This document shows positions 22,803-46,660 of a DNA stretch of 47,934 nucleotides, piece after piece. A program made the translations under genes and the position numbers. Under the pieces are notes generated by a model. The model saw nothing but the letters and a program-made list of their open reading frames with translations, was not told the origin of the DNA and ran no database searches. Origin of the DNA: an uncultured bacterium (GTDB lineage Bacteria > Krumholzibacteriota > Krumholzibacteriia > Krumholzibacteriales > CAZTHK01). Position 1 is the first letter of the stretch. Each line of letters starts with the position of its first letter. The stretch lies in assembly GCA_964613215.1 (NCBI GenBank), contig CAZTHK010000026.1, positions 1 through 47,934 on the forward strand, written 5' to 3'.

Positions 22803-24404
22803 ATGAAATCCACATTCACATATGAAGAAAAAGACTGCAAACAGCAGATTCACGGGAACCGCCCTTCGCCAGTGCATCTGTGGCAATATCCGGCATACCG
22901 GGACCCCCGGGGGGTGTGGCATTCTGAATTCTCCGGAGCGATTAAGAGCAGTAAGGGCCGGATGAGATGGAATCCGGGGGGGATACTCTCATCCATCGCC
23001 TTCAGCTATCCCTGCGGTGACATCACCCTGGTGGAGGGGATCCGAAGGAGTCCCTGGCTATCCGGGATAGACCAGGAGGACGAGGTTGAACTGTCCTCCA
23101 TACCCCCACATGGAAGAACCTGGATGAAACCCCGGGACATTGCCGCCAGGCTGCTGGAACTGCTGGAAGAGGAAGCCCGGGCAGCCTGCCGTTCTCATTC
23201 CGAGATATACATACTCCTATCCGGAGGCCTGGACAGCAGGATCGTGGCAGGTGTTGTGAGCAGGTTAAAGAGGGAGGGGAAGATAGAGGGAGATCTCTAT
23301 GCGGCCACCTGGGGACTGGAAGACTCCAGGGATGTGGTATATGCCCGGGAAATTGCCGGCATGCTGGGACTGGAATGGTGCCATATTCCCATAGGGCCGG
23401 AAACCATTATGGACAACATAGATTTATCCGCCTCCACCGGCAATATGCTTCCCCCCTCCGACCTTCACTGCCTCTCCTGGTTTTCCAGGGTGCCACCCGG
23501 TTCCCTGGTTCTGGCGGGCAGCTACGGGGATTCCATAGGCCGGGGGGAGTACAGCGGACAGCACATTCTGGAGCTGGAACCGCTCATGCCCCGGAACCTG
23601 CTGGAGCTTCTCAAGCCGCCTCCCTTCAACCGGGGAGCGGAAATAATACAGGGGGAGCTGGACAACCTGATGGAGAGATGTGAGGATAAAACCCCGTATG
23701 TGCTGTATGAGCATCAGCAGCAGGGCCACTATATGCGGAGCATGATTGCCCAGGCCATCAGCGTTTTGCTTCCCCGTTGTGACGTCTACCAGATGTTCAC
23801 TGCTCCCCCGGTATATTCATTCATGTGGTCGATCCACCCCTCCATAAGAGACAACCGGACCTATGCTCATCTGCTGGAGCTTATCCACCCCCACCTGGCA
23901 CGGCTCCCCTGGGCCAGGACCAACCGGGCGCTGAGGGGTAGGACAGAGAGAGCCAGAAGAGATGTGAGAAAGCAATTTCACTGCTATGCCGAATGGATAA
24001 GCGGGCCATTGTACCACCGGATCAAAGAGATAGTGGATCCGGGCTGGTTTGAACAGACCGGTATATTCCGGGGCCACAGCATAGAGAAACTTACCCGCAG
24101 CCTGAAACCGGATCAGCAGAGCCTGATGGGAGAAAGTTTCAAACCTTACCGCCTGTGGCTATGGCTGGCCGGCATTCGTAAATTCCATCAGTGGTGCGGG
24201 GAGTATGGTGTAAACCTGGAGTATGATCCCGATTCGCCGGAGAACCGCCATCTTCCCCCCTATCACCCTCCCCGGGATAACAGAACGTCATTAAGGAAAT
24301 TCATCGCCCGGTGGAGAACTGCCAGAACGATCAAGAGAAAGCTCAAGCGGATCATCCTGAAATGGAGAGCAATCAGGGATTATCCTCCTGAACCGGGCAG
24401 ATAG
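22803..24404 (+). CDS. Asparagine synthetase B-like ATP-pyrophosphatase lacking the N-terminal glutaminase domain
   Basis: PP-loop ILLSGGLDS about 140 aa from the N-terminus and an AsnB synthetase-domain C-terminus. No MCGI Ntn nucleophile. Confidence 0.7.
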   Translation: MKSTFTYEEKDCKQQIHGNRPSPVHLWQYPAYRDPRGVWHSEFSGAIKSSKGRMRWNPGGILSSIAFSYPCGDITLVEGIRRSPWLSGIDQEDEVELSSIPPHGRTWMKPRDIAARLLELLEEEARAACRSHSEIYILLSGGLDSRIVAGVVSRLKREGKIEGDLYAATWGLEDSRDVVYAREIAGMLGLEWCHIPIGPETIMDNIDLSASTGNMLPPSDLHCLSWFSRVPPGSLVLAGSYGDSIGRGEYSGQHILELEPLMPRNLLELLKPPPFNRGAEIIQGELDNLMERCEDKTPYVLYEHQQQGHYMRSMIAQAISVLLPRCDVYQMFTAPPVYSFMWSIHPSIRDNRTYAHLLELIHPHLARLPWARTNRALRGRTERARRDVRKQFHCYAEWISGPLYHRIKEIVDPGWFEQTGIFRGHSIEKLTRSLKPDQQSLMGESFKPYRLWLWLAGIRKFHQWCGEYGVNLEYDPDSPENRHLPPYHPPRDNRTSLRKFIARWRTARTIKRKLKRIILKWRAIRDYPPEPGR

Positions 24405-24465
24405 CGGAAAATGTACCTGTGGATGATAAAACAAAAGTCCCACCCGGGGGAAAAAACTAAAGTCA

Positions 24466-24486
24466 CAGTTTCAGTCTCCGAAACTG
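24466..24486. promoter_or_regulatory. Inverted repeat CAGTTTCAG-N-GAAACTG between the asnB-like and asnB genes; a third copy of the GTTTCAG ... GAAAC motif
   Basis: 7-bp stem and 7-nt loop in the 171-bp spacer upstream of asnB. Confidence 0.35.
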
Positions 24487-24575
24487 AGGAAAACGAACCT
24501 GAAAGATAAAAGGGAACCCGGATAATCCAGAACCATATGAGGAGTTGCGGGTTCCGGTCGAAAAGGGAAACAGAT

Positions 24576-26576
24576 ATGTGCGGAATCGCAGGAATACTGC
24601 ACTTTAATTCGGAAAGAAGTGTGAACGGCAGGCTGCTGGATGATATGACAGATATTCTCCGTCACCGGGGCCCTGACGGCCGGGGGACCTTCACCGATGG
24701 TAATATCGGCCTGGGACACAGGAGGCTGGCCATCATCGATCTCCACACCGGGCAGCAACCCATGGCCAGCGGCGACCGGAAGATATGGATAGTGGTCAAC
24801 GGAGAAATCTACAACTACCTTGATCTTAAAGCGATACTTTCCAGCAAGGGGCACCGCTTCCAGACCGGATCGGACAGCGAAGTGATCATCCACGCCTACC
24901 GGGAATGGGGAACCGATTGTGTGAAAAAATTTAACGGAATGTTCGCCTTCGCCCTGTGGGACTGCAGCCGTAAACGCCTCATACTGGCCAGGGACAGGCT
25001 GGGGATCAAGCCGCTCTACACCACCGTGGTGGACGGAACCCTCCTGTTCGCCTCCGAGATCAAATCATTACTGACCTGCCCCGGAGTGGAGAGGAGGGTG
25101 GATCCCGAAGCCATATCAAGCTATCTGGGCTACCGTCATGTGCTGGGTGAGGGCACCCTGTTCAGGGGAATAAACAAGCTCAAGCCGGGCCACCTGCTGA
25201 TCTCTGAGAATGGCTATCTCTCCAGTGTTCAGTACTGGGATGTGCCGGTCTATACTGAAAGGGAAGACCGGGGAGAGGAGTACTACACCAGCCGGGTGCG
25301 GGAGATGCTGAAGGAATCGGTCAAGCGCAGGATGATGAGCAATGTGCCACTGGGAGCTTATCTGAGCGGGGGACTGGACAGCTCCATCGTGGTAGCACTA
25401 CTTTCGGAGATGAGTGATGATCCGGTAAAGACCTATACCGTGGCATTCCCCCAGGAGGATTTCAGCGAAAGGCGCTACGCCTCCATGGTTGCCTCCGGAT
25501 GCGAAACCGACCACACCGAGGTCATGATAGACGACAGCAGCTACATGGATATGATACCCCGGCTGATCAGGTTCAAGGATGCTCCTCTGGCGGTGGCCAA
25601 TGAAGTGCCGCTCCATCTGATGTCCAGGGAATTGAAGAAGGATATAACGGTGGTGCTGTCGGGGGAGGGAGCGGATGAACTGTTCGGGGGATACGGAAGG
25701 ATATTCCGAAGCCCCTTCGACTACCAGAGATCACGGTTTCTGGAGAATCACCGCCACCTGCTTCCGGAGTACCGGAATATACTGATGGATAAATTCTCCG
25801 ACATTTACGGAAGCTCGGTCTTTCTCAATGAGACAGATCATTTCATGAGAAAATATCATTATCTCAGTCCCCTGGACAGGGAGACCTTCCTGACTCCCGG
25901 CATGCTGGATCAGACTGAGGGGGACAGCTACATCAGGGAACACTTCGAGAAGCAATTCAGGGAGGCGGAGGGACTATCTCACTACCACAAGATTCTATAT
26001 ATCTTTCAGAAGACCCACCTCCAGAATCTCCTGATGCGGGTGGATATGACCACCATGGCCACGTCTGTGGAGGCCCGGGTCCCCTTTGTGGACCATCAGC
26101 TGGTCGAATTCGTGCTGTCCATACCTTTTCACTACAAGGTAAGGTGGAAGAGTGAAATGCACCGGCAGATGGCCGCCCTGCTGTCCAGCGACGAACTGAG
26201 CGAAAATTATGACACCACCAAGTACATCCTCAAGAGGGCCTTCCGGGATGACCTTCCCCGTCAGATTATCGACCGCAGGAAGATGGGATTTCCGGTGCCT
26301 CTTAACAGATGGCTGGGGGGCAATTATATGTCCCGGGCAAAGGAGATCCTGCTGGACCGCCGCACCGCCTCCCGGGGGATAATCGATGTTTCCGCAGTGG
26401 AGAAAGAGCTTGCCAGTCAGAGGATTAAGGAGCATTCCACCGCTCTGAAGATGTGGATGCTGATGAACCTGGAGATCTGGTTCAGGGAATACATTGACCA
26501 ATGGGAAGGAGGAAAGGTTCCGGAAGAGGAAACAAGCTCGAAGGAAGCTCCCACTCACCGGACCGTACAGATATGA
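24576..26576 (+). CDS. asnB: Asparagine synthetase (glutamine-hydrolysing) family amidotransferase, full length
   Basis: MCGIAGI Ntn class-II glutaminase start, PP-loop YLSGGLDSS. The start is the ATG at 24576. Stop overlaps the next start (ATGA). Confidence 0.85.
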   Translation: MCGIAGILHFNSERSVNGRLLDDMTDILRHRGPDGRGTFTDGNIGLGHRRLAIIDLHTGQQPMASGDRKIWIVVNGEIYNYLDLKAILSSKGHRFQTGSDSEVIIHAYREWGTDCVKKFNGMFAFALWDCSRKRLILARDRLGIKPLYTTVVDGTLLFASEIKSLLTCPGVERRVDPEAISSYLGYRHVLGEGTLFRGINKLKPGHLLISENGYLSSVQYWDVPVYTEREDRGEEYYTSRVREMLKESVKRRMMSNVPLGAYLSGGLDSSIVVALLSEMSDDPVKTYTVAFPQEDFSERRYASMVASGCETDHTEVMIDDSSYMDMIPRLIRFKDAPLAVANEVPLHLMSRELKKDITVVLSGEGADELFGGYGRIFRSPFDYQRSRFLENHRHLLPEYRNILMDKFSDIYGSSVFLNETDHFMRKYHYLSPLDRETFLTPGMLDQTEGDSYIREHFEKQFREAEGLSHYHKILYIFQKTHLQNLLMRVDMTTMATSVEARVPFVDHQLVEFVLSIPFHYKVRWKSEMHRQMAALLSSDELSENYDTTKYILKRAFRDDLPRQIIDRRKMGFPVPLNRWLGGNYMSRAKEILLDRRTASRGIIDVSAVEKELASQRIKEHSTALKMWMLMNLEIWFREYIDQWEGGKVPEEETSSKEAPTHRTVQI

Positions 26577-39538: not shown

Positions 39539-41653
39539 CTATTCCTGATCATCACCGGAAGCCTTTTTGCTTCCCCCCCGTTTCAACCACTGGTCGAACC
39601 AGTCCAGAATGGATGCATACCAGAAGCGCTGATTATGGGGCTGGAGAATCCAGTGATCCTCATCGGGAAAGCGGATCATCCTGGAGGGAACCCCCTCCCT
39701 CTGCAGAGCGGTAAACATGGTTTCCCCGCCGGTTATGGGAACCCGGTAATCCAGCTCCCCGTGTATAATAAGATGGGGAGTGCTGAAATTGGCTGCATAT
39801 CTGACCGGGGCGAACCTGTCAGCCAGTTCCGGCTTGTCCCAGGGGGTGCCGTAGAATTCCCATTCGGGAAACCACAGCTCATCGGTGGAACCGTAGGAAC
39901 ACCACTGTTCCACCTCTCCGGCGTGAGATACCAGCACAGAGAACATACCATCCTGATTATGTCCCTGAAGCCAGTTACATACAAATCCTCCGAAGGAGCC
40001 GCCCCATGCTCCCACCCTTTCCGGGTCGATCCAGGAGTTGTTCTCCAGTACGTAAGCTACTCCCTTCTTGATATCCTCTATCACTCTTCCTCCCCAATCG
40101 CCCCTTATCTGGTCGGTAAACTTCTGGCCATAGCCGGTAGAGCCGCGGGGATTGCAGAAAAACACGGCATACCCCGCACCGGAGAAGAGGGCATACTCGG
40201 TGCGGTATGCATAGCCGAACATCTGCTGAGGCCCTCCGTGTATTCTCACCATCAGTGGATACTTCCGGGAAGAATCAAAACCGGCCGGCTTTACCAGAAA
40301 ACCATGCACTCCGGTCCCGTCCGCTCCGGGAAACCACACCTCCGTGGCATCGGGGAAATGGTGATCCCGGTAGATTTCCCGGTTTATCCGGGTCAGCTGT
40401 TTTACATCCATGCCCCGGCGGTTACATCTGAACAATTCGTAGTAATGAGTCATGGGACGGTACCGGTAGGCAAAGAATTTCTCCTCCGGTCCCGGCTGTA
40501 CACTGAGATGATAACCCCGTCCCGAGGGACCGCTGCCTCCCACTACGGCTTCCACCTCTCCCCCTTCCCGGGATACCCTGAACAGGTTGATATCACCCTG
40601 GTCTTCGGCCGAAAAATAGAGGCTCTCCTCATCATCAGCCCAGAACAGCGAGCCTACACTACGGTCAAAACCCGGGGTCAGGCTCACCGGCTCTCCGTCC
40701 GGCAGTTCCATGATCATCAGCTGATACCGGTCTGATTCATAGCCCGGTCTCCGGCTGGCCCGGTAGGCCAGGTATCTGCCGGAGGGGGACACACGGGGAT
40801 GAGTATCAGCCGCCGGATTTCCGGTAATCTTCTCCACCTCCCCCCCATCCAGTGCAACCCTCCAGATCTCCTCATTGTAGGATACCGCCTGATCCTCGTC
40901 CTGTTTGCCGGAGAAATATATCATCTCCCCGTCCGGGGTCAGGTCGAAATCCCTGCCCGCCGAAGCCAGCCAGTAGGTGAGAGCATCGAACTTCAACCCC
41001 GGGGTGAGATCCCTGGGGGCTCCCCCCTCCGCCGGAATGTAGAAAAGGTGCTGCACCTTCCCGTCATCGTAACTGTCCCAGTGCCGGTACATCAGGCTCT
41101 GGTGAACCATGGCGGTAACCTTATCTTCCTCCTTCTCCCTGTCCTTCTCCCTGATACAGTCAGGGTCTTCACAGTCCGGATATATCCGGGCGGTAAATAT
41201 CATTCCCTCTCCGTCCGTAGTCCACATCATCTCTCCCACTCCCCCGGGGAAACCGGTCAGCTTCCTGGCCTCTCCCCCCCCGAAGGGCAGAAGGTAGATC
41301 TGGGTATCCTCTCCTCTGCCGGAGAGAAAGGCTATGGTGCTCCCATCTGGCGACCACACCGGATGATTGTCGCTCTCATCGCTGGTGGTCATCCTTCTGG
41401 GCTCTCCCCCCTGCGATGATACCACCCATATATCGGAATTCTTCCCGTTCTCCTCAAAATCGGTGACCGTTACTACATATGCCACCCACTCGCCATCCGG
41501 GGAGATCCGGGGACTGTCCAGACGCTTAAGCTTCCAAATATCATCCGGGGTCCATGGTTTCTTATCCCCTGCCGAAGGTCCGGATGCAGTTACAGCCAGA
41601 AGAGTTATCACCACGGCCATAATTACTGCGCAGCGTATACCCGAAGATTTCAT
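39539..41653 (-). CDS. Secreted S9 family serine peptidase with N-terminal beta-propeller
   Basis: Signal peptide, propeller repeats (SPDGEWVAY, SPDGSTIAF), GGSFGGF nucleophile motif, alpha/beta-hydrolase domain. Confidence 0.85.
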   Translation of the reverse strand: MKSSGIRCAVIMAVVITLLAVTASGPSAGDKKPWTPDDIWKLKRLDSPRISPDGEWVAYVVTVTDFEENGKNSDIWVVSSQGGEPRRMTTSDESDNHPVWSPDGSTIAFLSGRGEDTQIYLLPFGGGEARKLTGFPGGVGEMMWTTDGEGMIFTARIYPDCEDPDCIREKDREKEEDKVTAMVHQSLMYRHWDSYDDGKVQHLFYIPAEGGAPRDLTPGLKFDALTYWLASAGRDFDLTPDGEMIYFSGKQDEDQAVSYNEEIWRVALDGGEVEKITGNPAADTHPRVSPSGRYLAYRASRRPGYESDRYQLMIMELPDGEPVSLTPGFDRSVGSLFWADDEESLYFSAEDQGDINLFRVSREGGEVEAVVGGSGPSGRGYHLSVQPGPEEKFFAYRYRPMTHYYELFRCNRRGMDVKQLTRINREIYRDHHFPDATEVWFPGADGTGVHGFLVKPAGFDSSRKYPLMVRIHGGPQQMFGYAYRTEYALFSGAGYAVFFCNPRGSTGYGQKFTDQIRGDWGGRVIEDIKKGVAYVLENNSWIDPERVGAWGGSFGGFVCNWLQGHNQDGMFSVLVSHAGEVEQWCSYGSTDELWFPEWEFYGTPWDKPELADRFAPVRYAANFSTPHLIIHGELDYRVPITGGETMFTALQREGVPSRMIRFPDEDHWILQPHNQRFWYASILDWFDQWLKRGGSKKASGDDQE

Positions 41654-41820: not shown

Positions 41821-42879
41821 TCACAGCAGAAAGATCCTGTTTTCCCTGCACTGCTCTATCATGGAGGCGGGCCATACTCCCGCCTGTACCTCTCCGATGT
41901 GCGCCTTGCGCAGAAACATCATACAGAGCCTGGACTGTCCTATTCCTCCCCCGATGGTGAGGGGAAGTTTCCCCTCCAGAACGCAGCGGTGAAAGTAGAG
42001 CTCTTTCCTGTCACTTTCCCCCTTGATCTCCAGCTGTCTCAGTAAGGCCGCCCTGTCCACCCTTATCCCCATGGAGGAAAGCTCGAAGGCACATTCCAGG
42101 GGGGGATACCATACCAGTATATCCCCGTTCAGGCCCCTTCTACCCTCCCCGGTGGGGGTGGACCAGTCGTCATAGTCGGCCGCCCTGGGATCATGGGGAC
42201 GCCCGTCACTCAACTCAGCGCCTATGCCGGTTATGAACACAGCCCCCCACTCTCTGCAGATTTCCCTCTCCCGATCCTGCGGATCCAGACGGGGATACCT
42301 CTCCAGCAGCTCCTCACTGTGAATGAATCTTAGCTCAGGGGGAAGAAAGGAATGACCCACCTCACTGAACAGATCGCATACATTCTTCTCCATCTCCCTG
42401 ATAGAATGATATATCCTGTTCACCACCTCCCGGAGGAAATCCAGATTACGCTCCCGGCCGGTTATCACCCTCTCCCAGTCCCACTGGTCCACATAGATGG
42501 AATGGAGGTTGTCCAGGACTTCGCCCGGCCGGACCGCATTCATATCTGTATACAGGCCCTCCCCGGAGGAGAAGCCGTAGTTGGCCAGAGCTACCCTCTT
42601 CCACTTGGCCAGCGACTGCACTATCTCCACTTCTTCATCCAGGTGGGCAAGACTGAACCTCACCGGCTCCTCGCTGCCGCTGAGGTAATCGTTGATTCCG
42701 CTACTGCGGGTTACGAAAATGGGGGCCGACACCCTGGTAAGGTTAAGTTCCAGGGCCAGTCTCTCCTGAAAATCATTCTTGATGAACCGGATGGCCTCCT
42801 CGGTCCGGCGGAGGCCCAGGGGGGGATGATACCCCTCCGGAATGGTCAGAGAGTAGTTCTTATCCCGGAGCTTTCTCAC
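41821..42879 (-). CDS. asnA: Aspartate--ammonia ligase (asparagine synthetase A)
   Basis: Near-colinear with E. coli AsnA: HSIYVDQWDWERV, DYDDWSTP, LNGDILVWYP, TIGGGIGQSRL. GTG start with AAGGGAG RBS. GTGA overlap with the def stop. Confidence 0.85.
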   Translation of the reverse strand: MRKLRDKNYSLTIPEGYHPPLGLRRTEEAIRFIKNDFQERLALELNLTRVSAPIFVTRSSGINDYLSGSEEPVRFSLAHLDEEVEIVQSLAKWKRVALANYGFSSGEGLYTDMNAVRPGEVLDNLHSIYVDQWDWERVITGRERNLDFLREVVNRIYHSIREMEKNVCDLFSEVGHSFLPPELRFIHSEELLERYPRLDPQDREREICREWGAVFITGIGAELSDGRPHDPRAADYDDWSTPTGEGRRGLNGDILVWYPPLECAFELSSMGIRVDRAALLRQLEIKGESDRKELYFHRCVLEGKLPLTIGGGIGQSRLCMMFLRKAHIGEVQAGVWPASMIEQCRENRIFLL

Positions 42880-43376
42880 TTAATGTGCTCCCTTTCACTC
42901 CCGAGGGCAAAACTCCCGCTGTCCACAGCCTTCATAACCGCAAGGATTCCTACCAGGTGATCGCATTCATGCTGCAGCAGTTCGGATAGGTCATCCTCCA
43001 GTTTCATCTCCCTGTTCCTGCCTTTCAGATCCATAAACTCGATCCAGCAGCTCCGGTGCCTTCTGACCTTTACCAGAAGGCCGGGGAAGGACATACAGTC
43101 ATCCCAGAGTTCCATCATGCTGTCGGATTTACCGCTAAGGCGGGGATTGATAAATACCAGCGGTTCTCCGGTATCCATATATATCAGCCGTTTCATCTCC
43201 CCTATCTGGGGAGCGGCTATGGCTCTACCCACCCCGTATCTCTCCCTGAAAGCTGCCATGGTGTCACGGAGATCGGCAACAATATCCCTGATACCTTCCA
43301 GTTCATTCTTTTTAACCGGAGATGAAACCCGGTAGAGTAGAGGGTTACCCAGCAGCAGAATGTCCCTCACAGCCAT
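42876..43376 (-). CDS. def: Peptide deformylase with variant motif II (DDCMS instead of EGCLS)
   Basis: Motif I GVGRAIAAPQ, motif II DDCMSFPG (metal-ligand Cys retained), motif III HECDH. The start is the ATG at 43376 with AGGAG RBS. The longer ORF to 43499 is discarded. Confidence 0.8.
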   Translation of the reverse strand: MAVRDILLLGNPLLYRVSSPVKKNELEGIRDIVADLRDTMAAFRERYGVGRAIAAPQIGEMKRLIYMDTGEPLVFINPRLSGKSDSMMELWDDCMSFPGLLVKVRRHRSCWIEFMDLKGRNREMKLEDDLSELLQHECDHLVGILAVMKAVDSGSFALGSEREHIK

Positions 43377-43392: not shown

Positions 43393-44880
43393 TTACCCGC
43401 CGGCTTTCTTCGTCTCAACAAATGATTCCGGCACTGTTCTGACTGCCGTCTCCATCTCCCCGGTGCTCCTGCTCCCCTTCCAACCGGAATATTCACCATT
43501 CCAGCAGTACAGGCAGAGTTTATTCCTTGGCAACCCGATAGCCTTGACCATATCCTCGATGGTCTGGTATCTAAGGGTGGATACCTGCAGGTCCTCAGCT
43601 ATCCATTCCACCATCCGGGCGTATTCCTCCGTCCGGTGATTAACATATCCGGAAACATCCTCCACCTCTCCACCTTCGATACTTCGGATGGCCCGGCGGG
43701 CAGCCAGCTCATCGATATCCCTGGTGGAAAGATTGAACCGGCAGGGGAACATCAGCGGCGGGCAGGCGGGCCGGACATGTATCTTTCTGGCACCCGCCTC
43801 CCACAGTTTTTTTACCGTGAAATTCTTGAGCTGGGTTCCACGTACAACTGAATCCTCACACAGCACAATCTGGTTATCCCTGATAATCTCCTTATTGGGT
43901 ACCAGTTTCATCCTGGCCACATGATCCCTGGTAGCCTGGGAGGGGGGTATGTAGCTGCGGCCGTAACCGGGGGTATACTTTACCAGGGGACGCCGGTACG
44001 GTTTTCCCGATTCCATTGCGTATCCCACCGCATGCCCCACTCCGGAATCGGGCACCCCGGCCACCACATCCACCTCTATATCATCATCCCTTCTGGCCAG
44101 GTATCTGCCGCATCTTTCCCTCACAGTCTCAACATTGATTCCCTTATAGCAGGTAGTCGGAAAACCGGTATATATCCACAGAAATGCACATATCTGCTCC
44201 TCCTCCCCGCTGCCGACCCTCTGGTGTATTCCATCCCGGTCTACGAAAACCACCTCTCCGGGACCCAGAAATTTCTCTATCCTGAAACCATTGTTCAGGA
44301 AGGCGGTGGTCTCGGAGGTAACCGCCCAGCCTCCCTTACCCTTTCCTATGGTCAGGGGAAAGTAACCCAGCCGGTCCCTGGCAGCGTATAATCCATCCTC
44401 CCTCAGGATCAGCAGGGAGCAGGAACCTTCGATCATCCCGAACATCCTCTCTATCCCGTCTACGATATCATCCCCCTGGCTGATCAGCTTGGCCACCAGC
44501 TCGGTCATGTTGATTCCGTTACTGCCCACCTCACTGAAGGTAATCCCCCTGCTCATCAGATCCGAGGCCAGCTCGCCGGCGTTGTCTATATAACCGTCGG
44601 TAACCAGGCAGAATGGGCCCGATCTGGAATTGAGGAAGATGGGCTGTTCGTCCATGGCGCTGATTACCCCGATCCCCAGATTGCCCCTCACCCTGTTGAT
44701 ATCCTCATAGAATTTGGACTTGAACTGCGACTGGTTGATATTATGAATCTGCCGGTTGAATCCATCCCCGTAAACTGCTATGCCGCCGAACTGAGTTCCC
44801 AGGTGAGAATGATAATCAACCCCGTACATCAGAACATCGGTACAATCACTTTCTGAAACAACTCCGAAAAGCCCGCTCAT
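43393..44880 (-). CDS. Amidophosphoribosyltransferase (PurF)-like class-II amidotransferase/PRTase with Ser replacing the Cys1 nucleophile
   Basis: Glutaminase-domain fold, PRPP-binding VLCEDSVVRGTQ, probable Fe-S cysteines (PACPPLMFPC). N-terminus is MSGLFGVV, not MCGIVG. GGAGG RBS 6 nt upstream leaves no alternative start. The YGID loop is replaced by FNLS. Confidence 0.8.
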   Translation of the reverse strand: MSGLFGVVSESDCTDVLMYGVDYHSHLGTQFGGIAVYGDGFNRQIHNINQSQFKSKFYEDINRVRGNLGIGVISAMDEQPIFLNSRSGPFCLVTDGYIDNAGELASDLMSRGITFSEVGSNGINMTELVAKLISQGDDIVDGIERMFGMIEGSCSLLILREDGLYAARDRLGYFPLTIGKGKGGWAVTSETTAFLNNGFRIEKFLGPGEVVFVDRDGIHQRVGSGEEEQICAFLWIYTGFPTTCYKGINVETVRERCGRYLARRDDDIEVDVVAGVPDSGVGHAVGYAMESGKPYRRPLVKYTPGYGRSYIPPSQATRDHVARMKLVPNKEIIRDNQIVLCEDSVVRGTQLKNFTVKKLWEAGARKIHVRPACPPLMFPCRFNLSTRDIDELAARRAIRSIEGGEVEDVSGYVNHRTEEYARMVEWIAEDLQVSTLRYQTIEDMVKAIGLPRNKLCLYCWNGEYSGWKGSRSTGEMETAVRTVPESFVETKKAGG

Positions 44881-44977
44881 TGATAACCTCCGACAACTCT
44901 CATAATCAAGGATAAAAAAATATAGTATAAAAAAAGGGCGGGTAACTCAACCATTTTTATGGTTCCTTCTCTTTTGC

Positions 44978-45051
44978 GGTTTCAGTGTCGAAACCAGGCG
45001 AGCCATGCATGAATATATTAATTGACTTTTTCCGGTTTCAGCGGTGAAACC
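44978..45051. promoter_or_regulatory. Two tandem inverted repeats GGTTTCAG-N5-GAAACC (centres 56 bp apart) in the 5-prime region of the purF-like operon
   Basis: 44978-44995 is GGTTTCAGTGTCGAAACC. 45034-45051 is GGTTTCAGCGGTGAAACC. Both sit inside a 27-nt direct repeat (TTTTNCGGTTTCAGNGNNGAAACCAG). Confidence 0.4.
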
Positions 45052-45420: not shown

Positions 45421-45697
45421 CTCTATTAGCTTTTATGTGCTTTGCGATATTTGTGAAACTACTTGAAATAGACATATAGCTATCTCCCCAAAGCTTCGGT
45501 ATATTTTTCAGCTGATCCTTCCCGGAAAATTTGGTGTAATAATTTTTTCCGTATGTTAACGTACCAGTTGCTGAAATTAATATCTGTCCGGTGCTTTACT
45601 TTCGGGATATTATCAAATCTATGAGTTGTATCCTTTCCGGCATGCGCCCGGCTACCGGAAAGATGCTGTGGTTAAACCTTTAACCGGGGAGAGTAAC

Positions 45698-46660
45698 ATG
45701 GATGATGAAATGTATAAGGCCGCACATACTGCCTTGAAGGACTGCATGAAGCTCAAAAGTGACGAGCTGCTGCTGGTGGTAACCGACACCGAGCTGGAGA
45801 AGATAGGAGAGGCCTTCTTCAAGGCCGGCAAAGCACTTGATGCCGTGCCCATGATTATCAAGATGTACCCCCTGAGCCGGAACGGGGAAGAACCGCCCGG
45901 GACGGTAAGCCGGGCTATGGCAAACAGTGACGTGGTGGTAGCACCCACCGCCATGTCCATCACCCATACCGGGGCCAGAAGGAATGCCTGTTCCGCCGGA
46001 GCCAGGGTGGCCACCATGCCCGGTATTACCGAGGACACCATGATCCGGGGTCTCAATGCCGATTACTACGCTATCGCCGAGAGAACCAGGAGGATGGCGG
46101 AGATACTGGACTCGGCGGATACAGCTCATATAACCACCCCTCTGGGCACAGACATAACCATTCCGATCAAGGGAATCAAATCCATAGCCTCTACCGGACT
46201 GATGCACGAACCGGGGTCCTTCGGGAATCTGCCCTCCGGGGAGGCCTATCTGATGCCGGTGGAGGGTGCCAGTGAAGGGGTATTCATAGTGGATGGCTCC
46301 ATGGCCGGGATAGGAAATCTTCAGGGCAAGACCCCCATTACCATAAAGGTGGAGAAGGGGATGGCCACCGGGATAACCGGAGGACCGGAGGCGGATGAAC
46401 TGCGGGAAAAACTGGAATCGGTAGGACCCAAAGCATTCAACACCGCCGAGCTGGGGATAGGAACAAATGATGCCGCTACCATCGTAGGAACCATCCTGGA
46501 GGATGAAAAGGTCATGGGTACAGTCCATATTGCTCTGGGAAACAATATGTCCATGGGGGGAACGGTGAATGTTCCCATACACCTGGACGGGGTAATGAAC
46601 CAACCCACCCTGGAGCTGGATGGCAAAGTTATAATGAAGGAGGGCAAGCTGAATATCTAG
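45698..46660 (+). CDS. M29-family (aminopeptidase T / AmpS-like) metallo-aminopeptidase, short form
   Basis: Blocks matching Thermus aminopeptidase T: GTDITIP, NLPSGEAYLMP, HIALGNN, IHLDGV. Start at 45698 with GGAGAG RBS. Confidence 0.65.
   Translation: MDDEMYKAAHTALKDCMKLKSDELLLVVTDTELEKIGEAFFKAGKALDAVPMIIKMYPLSRNGEEPPGTVSRAMANSDVVVAPTAMSITHTGARRNACSAGARVATMPGITEDTMIRGLNADYYAIAERTRRMAEILDSADTAHITTPLGTDITIPIKGIKSIASTGLMHEPGSFGNLPSGEAYLMPVEGASEGVFIVDGSMAGIGNLQGKTPITIKVEKGMATGITGGPEADELREKLESVGPKAFNTAELGIGTNDAATIVGTILEDEKVMGTVHIALGNNMSMGGTVNVPIHLDGVMNQPTLELDGKVIMKEGKLNI

What the first reader, a model, noticed from the sequence alone, without database searches (positions are those of the whole stretch)
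43393..44880. PurF-like amidophosphoribosyltransferase with Ser in place of the catalytic Cys1 and a replaced YGID loop, co-operonic with def and asnA
Class-II (Ntn) amidotransferases use the Cys directly after the initiator Met. Here the second codon is AGC (Ser), with a strong GGAGG RBS and no alternative start. The conserved PurF catalytic-loop YGID is FNLS. The PRPP-binding loop and likely Fe-S cysteines are retained. This looks like a glutaminase-dead or Ser-dependent PurF paralog, possibly ammonia-dependent. It is followed by def and the ammonia-dependent asnA, which is an odd functional grouping.
Basis: partly seen in the sequence, partly recalled or inferred. Interest (0 to 1): 0.55.

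Follow-up and report, generated by a model that had tools for sequence, protein, structure and literature searches.

The report
Cysteine-less PurF, probably ammonia-dependent
This gene belongs to a very large, uncharacterised family of PurF-like enzymes that have lost the whole glutamine-splitting site yet sit in the purF position of purine-synthesis operons in several bacterial phyla, so purine synthesis in these anaerobes probably starts from free ammonia instead of glutamine.

Summary
Window 43393-44880 (-) encodes a 495-aa two-domain PurF-fold protein that starts M-S-G-L-F-G behind a GGAGG ribosome-binding site, and no in-frame upstream start is possible. Ser2 is not an error: 143 family genes in the fetched loci have Ser (117), Gly (about 25) or Asn (1) at this position, never Cys. 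The whole glutamine site is gone (R26 to L, the R73/Y74 loop deleted, N101 and D127 not conserved). The PRPP loop, the flexible-loop residues and the four Fe-S cysteines are at least 91% conserved. The family forms one clade, marked by a D-Y-H-S-H-L-G motif, that includes Bacteroides and gut Oscillospiraceae proteins.

Relatives sit inside purine operons. In gut Oscillospiraceae the family member is the only purF in a ZTP-riboswitch-led purE-purC-X-purM-purN-purH-purD-purL operon. In other lineages it lies in purB-purL-purQ-X-purM-purD-purE, or directly beside a canonical purF. The best reading is a glutaminase-independent, ammonia-using phosphoribosylamine synthase.

The def/asnA linkage is lineage-specific. 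A Ser nucleophile is unlikely. Cys-less PurF' was noted in Crenarchaeota in 2011 but never tested, and I found no paper on this bacterial family. This is a new variant of a known kind, of moderate to high interest.

The parts
43393..44880 (-). Cys-less PurF-like gene (495 aa), a member of the D-Y-H-S-H-L-G family
   Evidence: ORF. TIGR01134 purF scores 202 bits against a cutoff of 350. AF2 model has pLDDT 84, and Foldseek's top hit is B. subtilis PurF 1ao0 at TM 0.79/0.85.
44887..44891 (-). GGAGG ribosome-binding site, 6 nt before the ATG
44875..44877 (-). Codon 2, AGC = Ser, at the position of the Cys1 nucleophile of canonical PurF
   Evidence: Family residues at this position are Ser, Gly, Ala, Thr or Asn, never Cys.
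44194..44880 (-). N-terminal Ntn-amidotransferase-fold domain (aa 1-229) with the glutamine site dismantled
   Evidence: Pfam GATase_7. R26 to L, R73/Y74 loop deleted, N101 to D, D127 to M. Within-family identity is 0.44, against 0.36 for the canonical set.
44797..44817 (-). Family-defining motif D22-Y23-H24-S25-H26-L27-G28, replacing canonical L-Q-H-R-G-Q
   Evidence: Invariant in 67 close homologues. D22, Y23 and H26 are invariant in the 54 diverse representatives that were picked by this motif, so that count is partly circular. In the separately chosen 35-sequence alignment, Y23 and H26 are invariant and D22 is at least 90% conserved.
43486..44193 (-). Type I phosphoribosyltransferase domain plus C-terminal Fe-S region (aa 230-465)
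   Evidence: Aligns with PurF residues 231-445. R254, G258, D278-S-G, K301, R308, Q315, R318, K325, D343-S-x-V-R-G-T, H368 and R370 are at least 91% conserved.
43831..43857 (-). PRPP-binding loop E-D-S-V-V-R-G-T-Q (aa 342-350)
43726..43737 (-). F-N-L-S (aa 382-385) where canonical PurF has Y-G-I-D, just after Fe-S ligand C380
   Evidence: The family consensus is [FY]-x-x-[ST]. Its role is not established.
43396..43485 (-). Non-conserved, low-confidence C-terminal tail (aa 466-495)
   Evidence: pLDDT below 50 for 469-495. The consensus has no majority residue over the tail after aa 465.
42876..43376 (-). Divergent peptide deformylase, co-operonic (16-nt spacer with AGGAG)
   Evidence: Pfam Pep_deformylase 123.5 bits. 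Below the NCBIfam def cutoffs. Junction shown.
41821..42879 (-). asnA, ammonia-dependent aspartate-ammonia ligase; its GTG start overlaps the def stop by 4 nt
   Evidence: TIGR00669 scores 397 bits against a cutoff of 293. Junction shown.
44978..45051 (.). Two 18-nt palindromes GGTTTC-N6-GAAACC (44978-44995 and 45034-45051) in the leader of the gene, flanking a promoter-like site; a possible operator pair
   Evidence: 0.12 expected by chance. Not found in related loci.

Best explanation
The gene encodes a glutaminase-independent form of the first enzyme of de novo purine synthesis.

Shown:
- It has the full two-domain PurF fold.
- It keeps a conserved PRPP-binding site, flexible-loop residues and a four-Cys [4Fe-4S] site.
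- It lacks every residue canonical PurF uses to bind and hydrolyse glutamine.
- Its family is repeatedly encoded in the purF position of purine operons.

Inferred:
- It converts PRPP to phosphoribosylamine using free NH3/NH4+, which enters through the remodelled N-domain into the former ammonia channel, and the product passes to PurD.
- The N-domain is kept under selection. It would serve as the lid and channel of the PRTase site, and perhaps as an ammonium capture site built from the new invariant Asp-Tyr-His-x-His motif and conserved Phe residues.
- The small residue at position 2 (Ser, Gly, Ala or Thr, all compatible with Met excision) preserves the buried free N-terminus of the Ntn fold rather than acting as a nucleophile.

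In this window the gene is transcribed with def and the ammonia-dependent asnA. That fits an ammonia-centred nitrogen economy but is not diagnostic.
For: Fold:
- AF2 pLDDT 84, with Foldseek TM 0.79-0.85 to B. subtilis, Arabidopsis and E. coli PurF.
- The flexible loop (304-309) is predicted to be disordered (pLDDT below 50); from my knowledge, this loop is disordered in the open form of canonical PurF.

Active sites:
- PRTase residues and the 4 Cys are at least 91% conserved in 54 diverse family representatives.
- C1, R26, R73/Y74, N101 and D127 are lost.

Operon context:
- L164-L166 (gut Oscillospiraceae type; Dysosmobacter/Lawsonibacter relatives): purE-purC-X-purM-purN-IMP cyclohydrolase-purH-purD-purL. 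X is the only purF and abuts purC. A ZMP/ZTP riboswitch lies ahead of purE.
- L027, L108, L119: purB-purL-(LOG)-(purQ)-X-purM-purD-purE (L119: no purE hit), with the X stop overlapping the purM start. All listed pur genes in L027 (purE just below cutoff) and purL in L108 score above NCBIfam cutoffs.
- Muribaculaceae: purL-X.
- In total 15 of 160 scanned loci have a pur gene close beside X, adjacent or one gene away.

Biochemical precedent: E. coli PurF C1S/C1A mutants lose glutamine-dependent activity but keep NH3-dependent activity (Mei & Zalkin 1989, as cited in PMC3261824).

N-domain constraint: the ratio of N-domain to PRTase-domain identity is 0.84 in the family and 0.85 in canonical PurF.
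Against: - There are no enzymatic data for any family member.
- In this window the gene is not near any pur gene, and in most loci there is no conserved partner.
- In 9 loci a canonical purF lies next to it or one gene away, and twice the two genes overlap (L111, L115). That would also fit a hetero-oligomer or a regulatory partner.
- Whether genomes with X as the only operon purF carry a canonical purF elsewhere could not be checked.
- The strong conservation of a new N-domain motif could mean a different nitrogen donor rather than free ammonia.
Confidence: 0.6

Rival explanations
1. It is a catalytically silent or regulatory partner (pseudo-amidotransferase subunit). It would assemble with canonical PurF into a hetero-oligomer and modulate its activity or feedback inhibition.
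For: Canonical purF (490-518 bits) lies next to it, or one gene away, in 9 loci: L028, L044, L048, L061, L085, L087 and L088 (purF-purM-X), and L111 and L115 (X-purF with a 17-20 nt overlap, suggesting coupled translation). From my knowledge, canonical PurF is oligomeric. Crenarchaeal PurF' also sits beside purF.
Against: The family member is the only purF in a nearly complete, ZTP-riboswitch-led pur operon and in the L027, L108 and L119 operons. All PRPP-site residues and the Fe-S cysteines are under strong purifying selection, which a purely regulatory subunit would not need.
Confidence: 0.15
2. It is still an amidotransferase-type enzyme with a new chemistry. The remodelled N-domain (D22-Y23-H24-x-H26, S74, F53/F57, N124) would bind or hydrolyse a different nitrogen donor, or in the Ser subfamily use Ser1 as an Ntn nucleophile, and deliver NH3 to the PRPP site.
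For: The N-domain is as constrained as in canonical PurF and carries new invariant polar residues in the former glutamine pocket. Ser is strongly conserved within the subfamily that includes the window (117 of 143).
Against: Position 2 is Gly, Ala, Thr or Asn in sister lineages that occupy the same operon slot, so no nucleophile is conserved there. The E. coli C1S mutant is inactive with glutamine. No candidate donor-producing gene is consistently linked.
Confidence: 0.15
3. It is an artefact: a sequencing or assembly error, a wrong start, or a decaying pseudogene of an ordinary purF.
For: None beyond the initial suspicion. A Cys codon lies 6 codons upstream in frame.
Against: No start codon is available upstream. 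A strong RBS is present. Thousands of homologues at 65-85% identity share the same N-terminus across phyla. The ORF is intact and the model confident. The protein falls in a separate clade from Cys-PurF.
Confidence: 0.01

Closest known systems
Glutamine PRPP amidotransferase PurF, Fe-S type (B. subtilis PurF, PDB 1AO0/1GPH; EC 2.4.2.14; TIGR01134)
   Same: Same two-domain fold (TM 0.79-0.85), about 29% identity, PRPP loop, flexible-loop Lys/Arg/Gln residues, four Fe-S cysteine ligands, and the purF slot in pur operons.
   Different: No Cys1. R26, the R73/Y74 glutamine loop, N101 and D127 are lost. A new D-Y-H-S-H-L-G motif is present, and Y-G-I-D is replaced by [FY]-x-x-[ST]. There is a 5-residue insertion before the T-E helix. 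The HMM score of 202 is below the curated cutoff of 350. The protein falls in a separate clade.
PurF' of Crenarchaeota (Brown et al. 2011, Biol Direct 6:63, PMC3261824)
   Same: A PurF-like paralogue without the N-terminal Cys (Ala/Val there), encoded near purF and other pur genes, proposed but never tested to be ammonia-dependent.
   Different: PurF' was described only in archaea, always alongside a canonical PurF. Whether it belongs to the same clade as the bacterial D-Y-H-S-H-L-G family was not tested here. At least one other Cys-less lineage (MAG...F-Y-Q-Q-H-L-G) falls outside this clade, so the Cys has been lost more than once.
E. coli PurF C1S/C1A/C1F site-directed mutants (Mei & Zalkin 1989)
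   Same: Loss of the Cys nucleophile abolishes glutamine use while NH3-dependent PRA synthesis persists. This is the biochemical precedent for the proposed activity.
   Different: Those are laboratory mutants with an otherwise intact glutamine pocket. Here the whole pocket has been rebuilt and fixed by selection across phyla.
Ammonia-dependent counterparts of amidotransferases (AsnA vs AsnB; NH3-dependent NadE vs glutamine-dependent NadE)
   Same: The same logic: a glutamine-independent enzyme for a step that elsewhere uses a glutaminase domain. AsnA is encoded two genes downstream in this window.
   Different: Those enzymes lack the glutaminase domain altogether or are unrelated in fold. Here the dead domain is retained and conserved.

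Membership tests
PurF, glutamine PRPP amidotransferase (EC 2.4.2.14, TIGR01134) | N-terminal Cys nucleophile exposed by Met or propeptide removal | tested here: not met
   Ser2 (AGC). No upstream start. No Cys in any of the 143 family ORFs.
PurF, glutamine PRPP amidotransferase (EC 2.4.2.14, TIGR01134) | Glutamine-binding and oxyanion residues (R26, R73, Y74, N101/G102, D127; E. coli numbering, from my knowledge of PurF structures) | tested here: not met
   R26 to L, R73/Y74 loop deleted, N101 to D (variable in the family), D127 to M (variable). Only G102 is kept.
PurF, glutamine PRPP amidotransferase (EC 2.4.2.14, TIGR01134) | Ntn amidotransferase domain fused to a type I PRTase domain (overall fold) | tested here: met
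   Foldseek against PDB: 1ao0 E = 2e-38, TM 0.79/0.85. The next 16 hits are all PurF.
PurF, glutamine PRPP amidotransferase (EC 2.4.2.14, TIGR01134) | PRPP-binding loop [DE]-D-S-x-V-R-G-T and flexible-loop basic residues | tested here: met
   E342-D-S-V-V-R-G-T-Q. K301, R308, Q315, R318 and K325 are 94-100% conserved in the family.
PurF, glutamine PRPP amidotransferase (EC 2.4.2.14, TIGR01134) | Score above the curated equivalog cutoff | tested here: not met
   202 bits against a cutoff of 350. Relatives score 175-218. Canonical purF in neighbouring genes scores 490-518.
PurF, glutamine PRPP amidotransferase (EC 2.4.2.14, TIGR01134) | Encoded with other de novo purine genes | tested here: inconclusive
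   Not met in this window. Met for family members in Omnitrophota-like, Planctomycetia, Oscillospiraceae and Muribaculaceae loci.
PurF, glutamine PRPP amidotransferase (EC 2.4.2.14, TIGR01134) | Catalyses PRPP + glutamine to PRA + Glu + PPi | not testable with these tools
   Needs an enzyme assay.
Fe-S subgroup of PurF (B. subtilis type) | Four Cys ligands of the [4Fe-4S] cluster (B. subtilis C236, C382, C437, C440) | tested here: met
   C231, C380, C456 and C459 are aligned and 91-98% conserved. The cluster itself cannot be tested here.
PurF' (Cys-less PurF paralogues, Brown et al. 2011) | PurF homologue lacking the N-terminal Cys and encoded near purF/pur genes | tested here: met
   for the family.
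PurF' (Cys-less PurF paralogues, Brown et al. 2011) | Same phylogenetic cluster as the crenarchaeal PurF' sequences | not tested
   No crenarchaeal PurF' sequences were available (the supplements hold only locus tags and trees).
Ntn hydrolases with a Ser nucleophile (penicillin-acylase-like mechanism) | Conserved N-terminal Ser/Thr nucleophile across functional homologues | tested here: not met
   Position 2 is Ser 35, Gly 23, Ala 10, Thr 7 and Asp 1 among the 86 non-Cys sequences aligned. Gly-type members occupy the purF slot in a nearly complete pur operon.

The most novel reading that the evidence does not exclude
The dead glutaminase domain has become a dedicated ammonium-capture module. 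The invariant Asp22/Tyr23/His24-x-His26 and Phe53/Phe57 cluster would recruit and deprotonate NH4+ at the mouth of the old NH3 channel, by analogy with the Asp/aromatic/twin-His logic of Amt channels. This form, not glutamine-PurF, would then be the sole physiological first step of purine synthesis in major anaerobe lineages, including Bacteroides and gut Oscillospiraceae. A textbook glutamine-dependent step would be ammonia-dependent in a large part of the gut and sediment microbiota.
Probability: 0.2. Interest if true: 0.8.

Novelty: new variant of a known kind. Interest (0 to 1): 0.6.

Why it matters
PurF is the committed, feedback-regulated step of purine synthesis and is taught as a glutamine amidotransferase. 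Public databases hold thousands of proteins in this family, including ones from Bacteroides, Muribaculaceae, Dysosmobacter/Lawsonibacter, Planctomycetia, Omnitrophota and Krumholzibacteriota. They are labelled 'amidophosphoribosyltransferase' although they cannot hydrolyse glutamine by the known mechanism and fall below the curated purF model.

If they are ammonia-dependent, three things follow:
- Metabolic models and nitrogen budgets for ammonia-rich anaerobic habitats change.
- A long-standing untested idea (archaeal PurF', 2011) gains cultured bacterial test systems.
- The family becomes a natural case of a retained, re-purposed pseudo-glutaminase domain.

It also matters for PurF-targeted antimicrobials, because inhibitors aimed at the glutamine site would not affect this form.

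Tried and rejected
- Upstream start or frameshift: rejected.
- Riboswitch or other known RNA in the 290-bp leader, or anywhere in the window: no Rfam hit.
- def/asnA as conserved functional partners: rejected. def follows the gene only in L002 and L008 (2 of 111 flanking ORFs). No asnA family appears among the 25 commonest flanking Pfam families, and the asnA ORF shares its BLAST cluster with no locus ORF.
- A universal conserved neighbour: none. RluA 9, PurM 5 and GreA 5 of 111 flanking ORFs. CarB and DUF1846 recur only in related Omnitrophota/Planctomycetia loci.
- The leader palindromes as a family-wide operator: absent from the 80 related loci fetched by then.
- Literature: seven full-text searches found only Brown et al. 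2011 on archaeal PurF'. Nothing was found on the bacterial family.
- Naming subfamilies through cluster look-ups: few names were returned.
- AFDB fold search to find UniProt-named members: library not available.
- Whole-genome co-occurrence of this family with canonical purF could not be done.
- 3D distances within the model (pocket geometry, Cys cluster) could not be measured, because the coordinates are not exposed to scripts.
Full report
**1. The observation**

Window 43393-44880 (minus strand) is a 495-codon ORF that begins M-S-G-L-F-G-V-V-S. The second codon is AGC (44875-44877). GGAGG lies at 44887-44891, six nt ahead of the ATG, and the stop is TAA.

Reading the same frame upstream gives a stop 23 codons before the ATG, with no ATG, GTG or TTG in between. 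A Cys codon lies six codons upstream (..YESCRRLS-M). It cannot be translated from any start, and homologues show nothing like it.

Pfam sees only the class-II amidotransferase domain (GATase_7, 49.6 bits). The NCBIfam purF equivalog model gives 202 bits against a curated cutoff of 350.

The best solved relative is B. subtilis PurF (1ao0, E = 4e-53). The residue-level alignment shows (coordinates checked):
- C1 to S
- H-R-G-Q to H-L-G-T
- N101-G to D-G
- S-D-T-E to N-M-T-E
- D-D-S-I-V-R-G-T-T to E-D-S-V-V-R-G-T-Q
- P-C-F-Y-G-I-D to P-C-R-F-N-L-S
- cysteines at all four Fe-S ligand positions

The one unverified label is 'catalytic loop' for YGID.

**2. Not an error, but a family**

A search of 5.8 billion proteins returned 8000 hits (the scoring cap). 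The best 120 are 65-85% identical and come from Krumholzibacteriota, Latescibacterota, Omnitrophota, Planctomycetota, Bacteroidales, Firmicutes and others. Of these, 110 begin MSG; most of the rest carry the same SG[LI]FG behind a GTG or an over-long called start, with two MNG and one MGG.

A full HMMER scan of 1.84 billion cluster representatives found 929 representatives at E ≤ 1e-30. The more distant ones start M-G-G-F-F-G, M-T-G or M-A-G and share a G-T-D-Y-H-S-H-L-G-T motif.

A MAFFT alignment of 104 sequences gave the following:
- Position 2 in the non-Cys set is Ser 35, Gly 23, Ala 10, Thr 7 and Asp 1.
- The segment carrying R73/Y74 of canonical PurF is deleted.
- N101 and D127 are not conserved, and R26 is Leu.
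- R254, G258, D278-S-G, K301, R308, Q315, R318, K325, D343-S-x-V-R-G-T, H368, R370 and the four Cys are 91-100% conserved.

A neighbour-joining tree puts all D-Y-x-S-H-L-G sequences in one clade. Cys-PurF and some other Cys-less lineages fall outside it.

Across all fetched loci, 143 family ORFs have Ser (117), Gly (22, plus 3 mis-started) or Asn (1) at this position, and none has Cys.

The residues tolerated (Ser, Gly, Ala, Thr) are the small ones that allow Met excision (established knowledge). This suggests selection for a free, buried N-terminus rather than for a nucleophile.

The N-domain is not decaying. Mean pairwise identity within the family is 0.44 for the N-domain and 0.52 for the PRTase domain, against 0.36 and 0.43 in the canonical set.

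**3. Fold**

An AlphaFold2 model built on 67 homologues has mean pLDDT 84 and pTM 0.81. The low-confidence stretches are the flexible loop (304-309) and the non-conserved tail (469-495).

Foldseek against the PDB returns PurF structures as the top 17 hits (B. subtilis, Arabidopsis, E. coli). TM-scores are 0.75-0.79 when normalised to the model and up to 0.85 when normalised to the target. GlmS and AsnB match only through the N-domain.

**4. Genomic context**

*In the window.* The gene is followed after 16 nt (with AGGAG) by a divergent def. asnA then follows, with its GTG overlapping the def stop. No other pur gene is in the 47.9-kb window.

*In relatives.* I compared 80 genome loci and 80 metagenome loci. 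There is no universal neighbour: of 111 flanking ORFs the commonest Pfam families are RluA (9), PurM (5) and GreA (5). def recurs only in two Krumholzibacteria loci, L002 and L008.

The one metabolically coherent signal is purine synthesis:
- **L027 (Omnitrophota MAG):** purB-purL-purQ-X-purM-purD-purE-tsaC...glyA. The X stop overlaps the purM start, and every pur gene except purE (141.4 vs a cutoff of 149.6) scores above its NCBIfam cutoff.
- **L108 and L119:** purB-purL-LOG-X-purM...purD-(purE, L108 only)-tsaC-like-rpiB-glyA.
- **L111:** purB-purL-LOG-purQ-X-purF-purM...purD-purE...glyA. Here X scores 214 bits and overlaps by 17 nt a canonical purF scoring 518 bits.
- **L115:** purQ-X-purF.
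- **Seven Pirellulales-type loci** (L028, L044, L048, L061, L085, L087, L088): canonical purF (490-499 bits)-purM-X.
- **Muribaculaceae:** purL-X.
- **Human-gut contigs L164-L166,** the most telling case. They carry a Gly-type member from a 90%-identity cluster of 3295 sequences, whose relatives are named Dysosmobacter, Lawsonibacter and Ruminococcaceae. The operon is purE-purC-X-purM-purN-IMP cyclohydrolase-purH-purD-purL. X starts at the last base of purC and no other purF is present. A ZMP/ZTP riboswitch (53.7 bits, gathering threshold 39) lies just ahead of purE.

The Bacteroides 470-aa 'amidophosphoribosyltransferase' also belongs to the family. It scores 175 bits on the purF model and lies beside an M20 peptidase and gcvT.

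**5. Interpretation**

A protein with an intact PRPP site that sits between purC/purQ/purL and purM/purD must act at the PRPP-consuming step, which is the formation of phosphoribosylamine.

It cannot obtain nitrogen from glutamine by the Ntn mechanism, because the nucleophile and the substrate-binding residues are both absent. In addition, E. coli PurF C1S/C1A mutants are known to lose glutamine-dependent activity but keep NH3-dependent activity (Mei & Zalkin 1989, as summarised in PMC3261824).

The most economical mechanism is therefore direct use of NH3/NH4+. The N-domain would be retained as the structural lid and channel. The new invariant polar/aromatic cluster may be an ammonium-binding site, but that is inference only.

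The habitats and taxa involved (gut, sediments, anaerobic candidate phyla) and the adjacent ammonia-dependent asnA fit an ammonia-rich nitrogen economy. That evidence is circumstantial.

I put this explanation at about 0.6.

**6. Rivals**

- **Partner or regulatory subunit of canonical PurF (about 0.15).** Adjacency, and twice overlap, with canonical purF supports it. Operons in which X is the only purF, and the strict conservation of catalytic PRTase residues, weaken it.
- **A new nitrogen donor or new N-domain chemistry, including a Ser1 nucleophile (about 0.15).** The constrained N-domain supports it. The Ser1 version is contradicted by Gly, Ala, Thr or Asn at that position in lineages with the same operon position.
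- **Artefact or pseudogene (about 0.01).** Excluded by the conservation data.

**7. Relation to what is known**

The closest family is Fe-S-type PurF. The fold, PRTase site and Fe-S ligands are met. The Cys nucleophile, the glutamine pocket and the curated HMM threshold are not. I therefore do not file it as a glutamine PRPP amidotransferase, although it very probably does the same pathway step.

The closest published concept is PurF' of Crenarchaeota (Brown et al. 2011). These are Cys-less PurF paralogues next to purF, suggested but never tested to be ammonia-dependent.

Seven full-text searches found nothing on a bacterial counterpart.

Whether the archaeal PurF' and this clade share an origin was not tested. 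At least one further Cys-less lineage lies outside the clade, so Cys loss has happened more than once.

**8. Verdict**

- The finding is a new variant of a known kind. It is a widespread, mis-labelled, biochemically untested form of the committed enzyme of purine synthesis, with cultured hosts available for testing.
- Interest is 0.6.

**9. Limits**

- No enzymology was possible.
- Whole-genome co-occurrence with canonical purF could not be computed.
- Model coordinates could not be inspected.
- The source organism is only inferred to be Krumholzibacteriota-like, from named best hits at 69-71% identity.

Noticed in passing
window 44978-44995 and 45034-45051: Two copies of an 18-nt palindrome GGTTTC-N6-GAAACC lie within a 26-nt direct repeat, 56 bp apart, in the 290-bp leader of the PurF-like gene. 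They bracket a promoter-like site at 45041..45012. About 0.12 matches are expected by chance. The motif is absent from 80 related loci and has no Rfam match. It looks like a pair of operators for an unknown regulator.
   Followed up: partly
window 42876-43376 (-): The co-operonic peptide deformylase is divergent. It falls below every NCBIfam def cutoff (94.9 against 125), and motif 2 reads D-D-C-M-S instead of E-G-C-L-S, while G-x-G-x-A-A-P-Q and H-E-C-D-H are kept. A def also follows the PurF-like gene in Krumholzibacteria loci L002 and L008. The PurF-like protein probably needs deformylation and Met excision to free its N-terminus, but a dedicated role for this def is pure speculation.
   Followed up: partly
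L164 6632-6731: A ZMP/ZTP (pfl) riboswitch (53.7 bits, gathering threshold 39) lies directly upstream of purE in the gut Oscillospiraceae-type pur operon, whose only purF is the Cys-less Gly-type protein.
   Followed up: yes
L108 4965-5624; L111 8534-9223; L115 1224-1901; L119 9286-9972: A TIGR00730/LOG-family (PpnN-like nucleotide nucleosidase) gene is embedded in the pur operons between purL and purQ/PurF-like. Finding a nucleotide-degrading type of enzyme inside a purine-synthesis operon is unexplained.
   Followed up: partly
L024, L032, L033, L056, L074, L075, L076 and others, next to the PurF-like gene: A DUF1846 protein (PF08903 + PF20921, about 506 aa, unknown function) and CarB (with CarA in L013 and L056) recur beside the PurF-like gene in about 9 Omnitrophota/Planctomycetia loci. 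The loci are related, so they are not independent evidence.
   Followed up: partly
L111 10001-12854; L115 2680-5151: The Cys-less PurF-like gene and a canonical purF (518 bits) lie directly adjacent, overlapping by 17-20 nt. This suggests coupled translation and raises the possibility of a PurF/PurF' hetero-oligomer.
   Followed up: partly
window 22803-26576 (+): Two asparagine-synthase-family genes lie next to a group-1 glycosyltransferase gene: a 533-aa protein with only the synthetase domain, and a 679-aa AsnB-like protein with GATase_7. They probably act as amidotransferases in surface-polysaccharide synthesis. The window thus holds both an AsnB-like and an AsnA gene.
   Followed up: no
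window 45626-46660 (+) and 39539-41653 (-): A weak M29 aminopeptidase-like gene (32 bits) is divergently transcribed from the PurF-like gene, and an S9 prolyl-oligopeptidase/PD40 gene lies downstream of asnA. Homologues of both recur near the PurF-like gene in a few Krumholzibacteria loci (clusters c14 and c15).
   Followed up: no
L081-L083 8001-11899: In Bacteroides the family member (470 aa, MGGFFG...) is followed by an M20 peptidase and gcvT (the ammonia-releasing glycine-cleavage T protein). It is preceded by a roughly 600-bp intergenic region that was not examined.
   Followed up: no
P0221, P0230, P0239, P0264-P0266: A second Cys-less PurF-like lineage (M-A-G-[LI]-V-G-L-S ... F-Y-Q-Q-H-L-G-E) falls outside the D-Y-H-S-H-L-G clade, on the canonical side of the tree. 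This indicates independent losses of the nucleophile. Its taxonomy is unknown.
   Followed up: no
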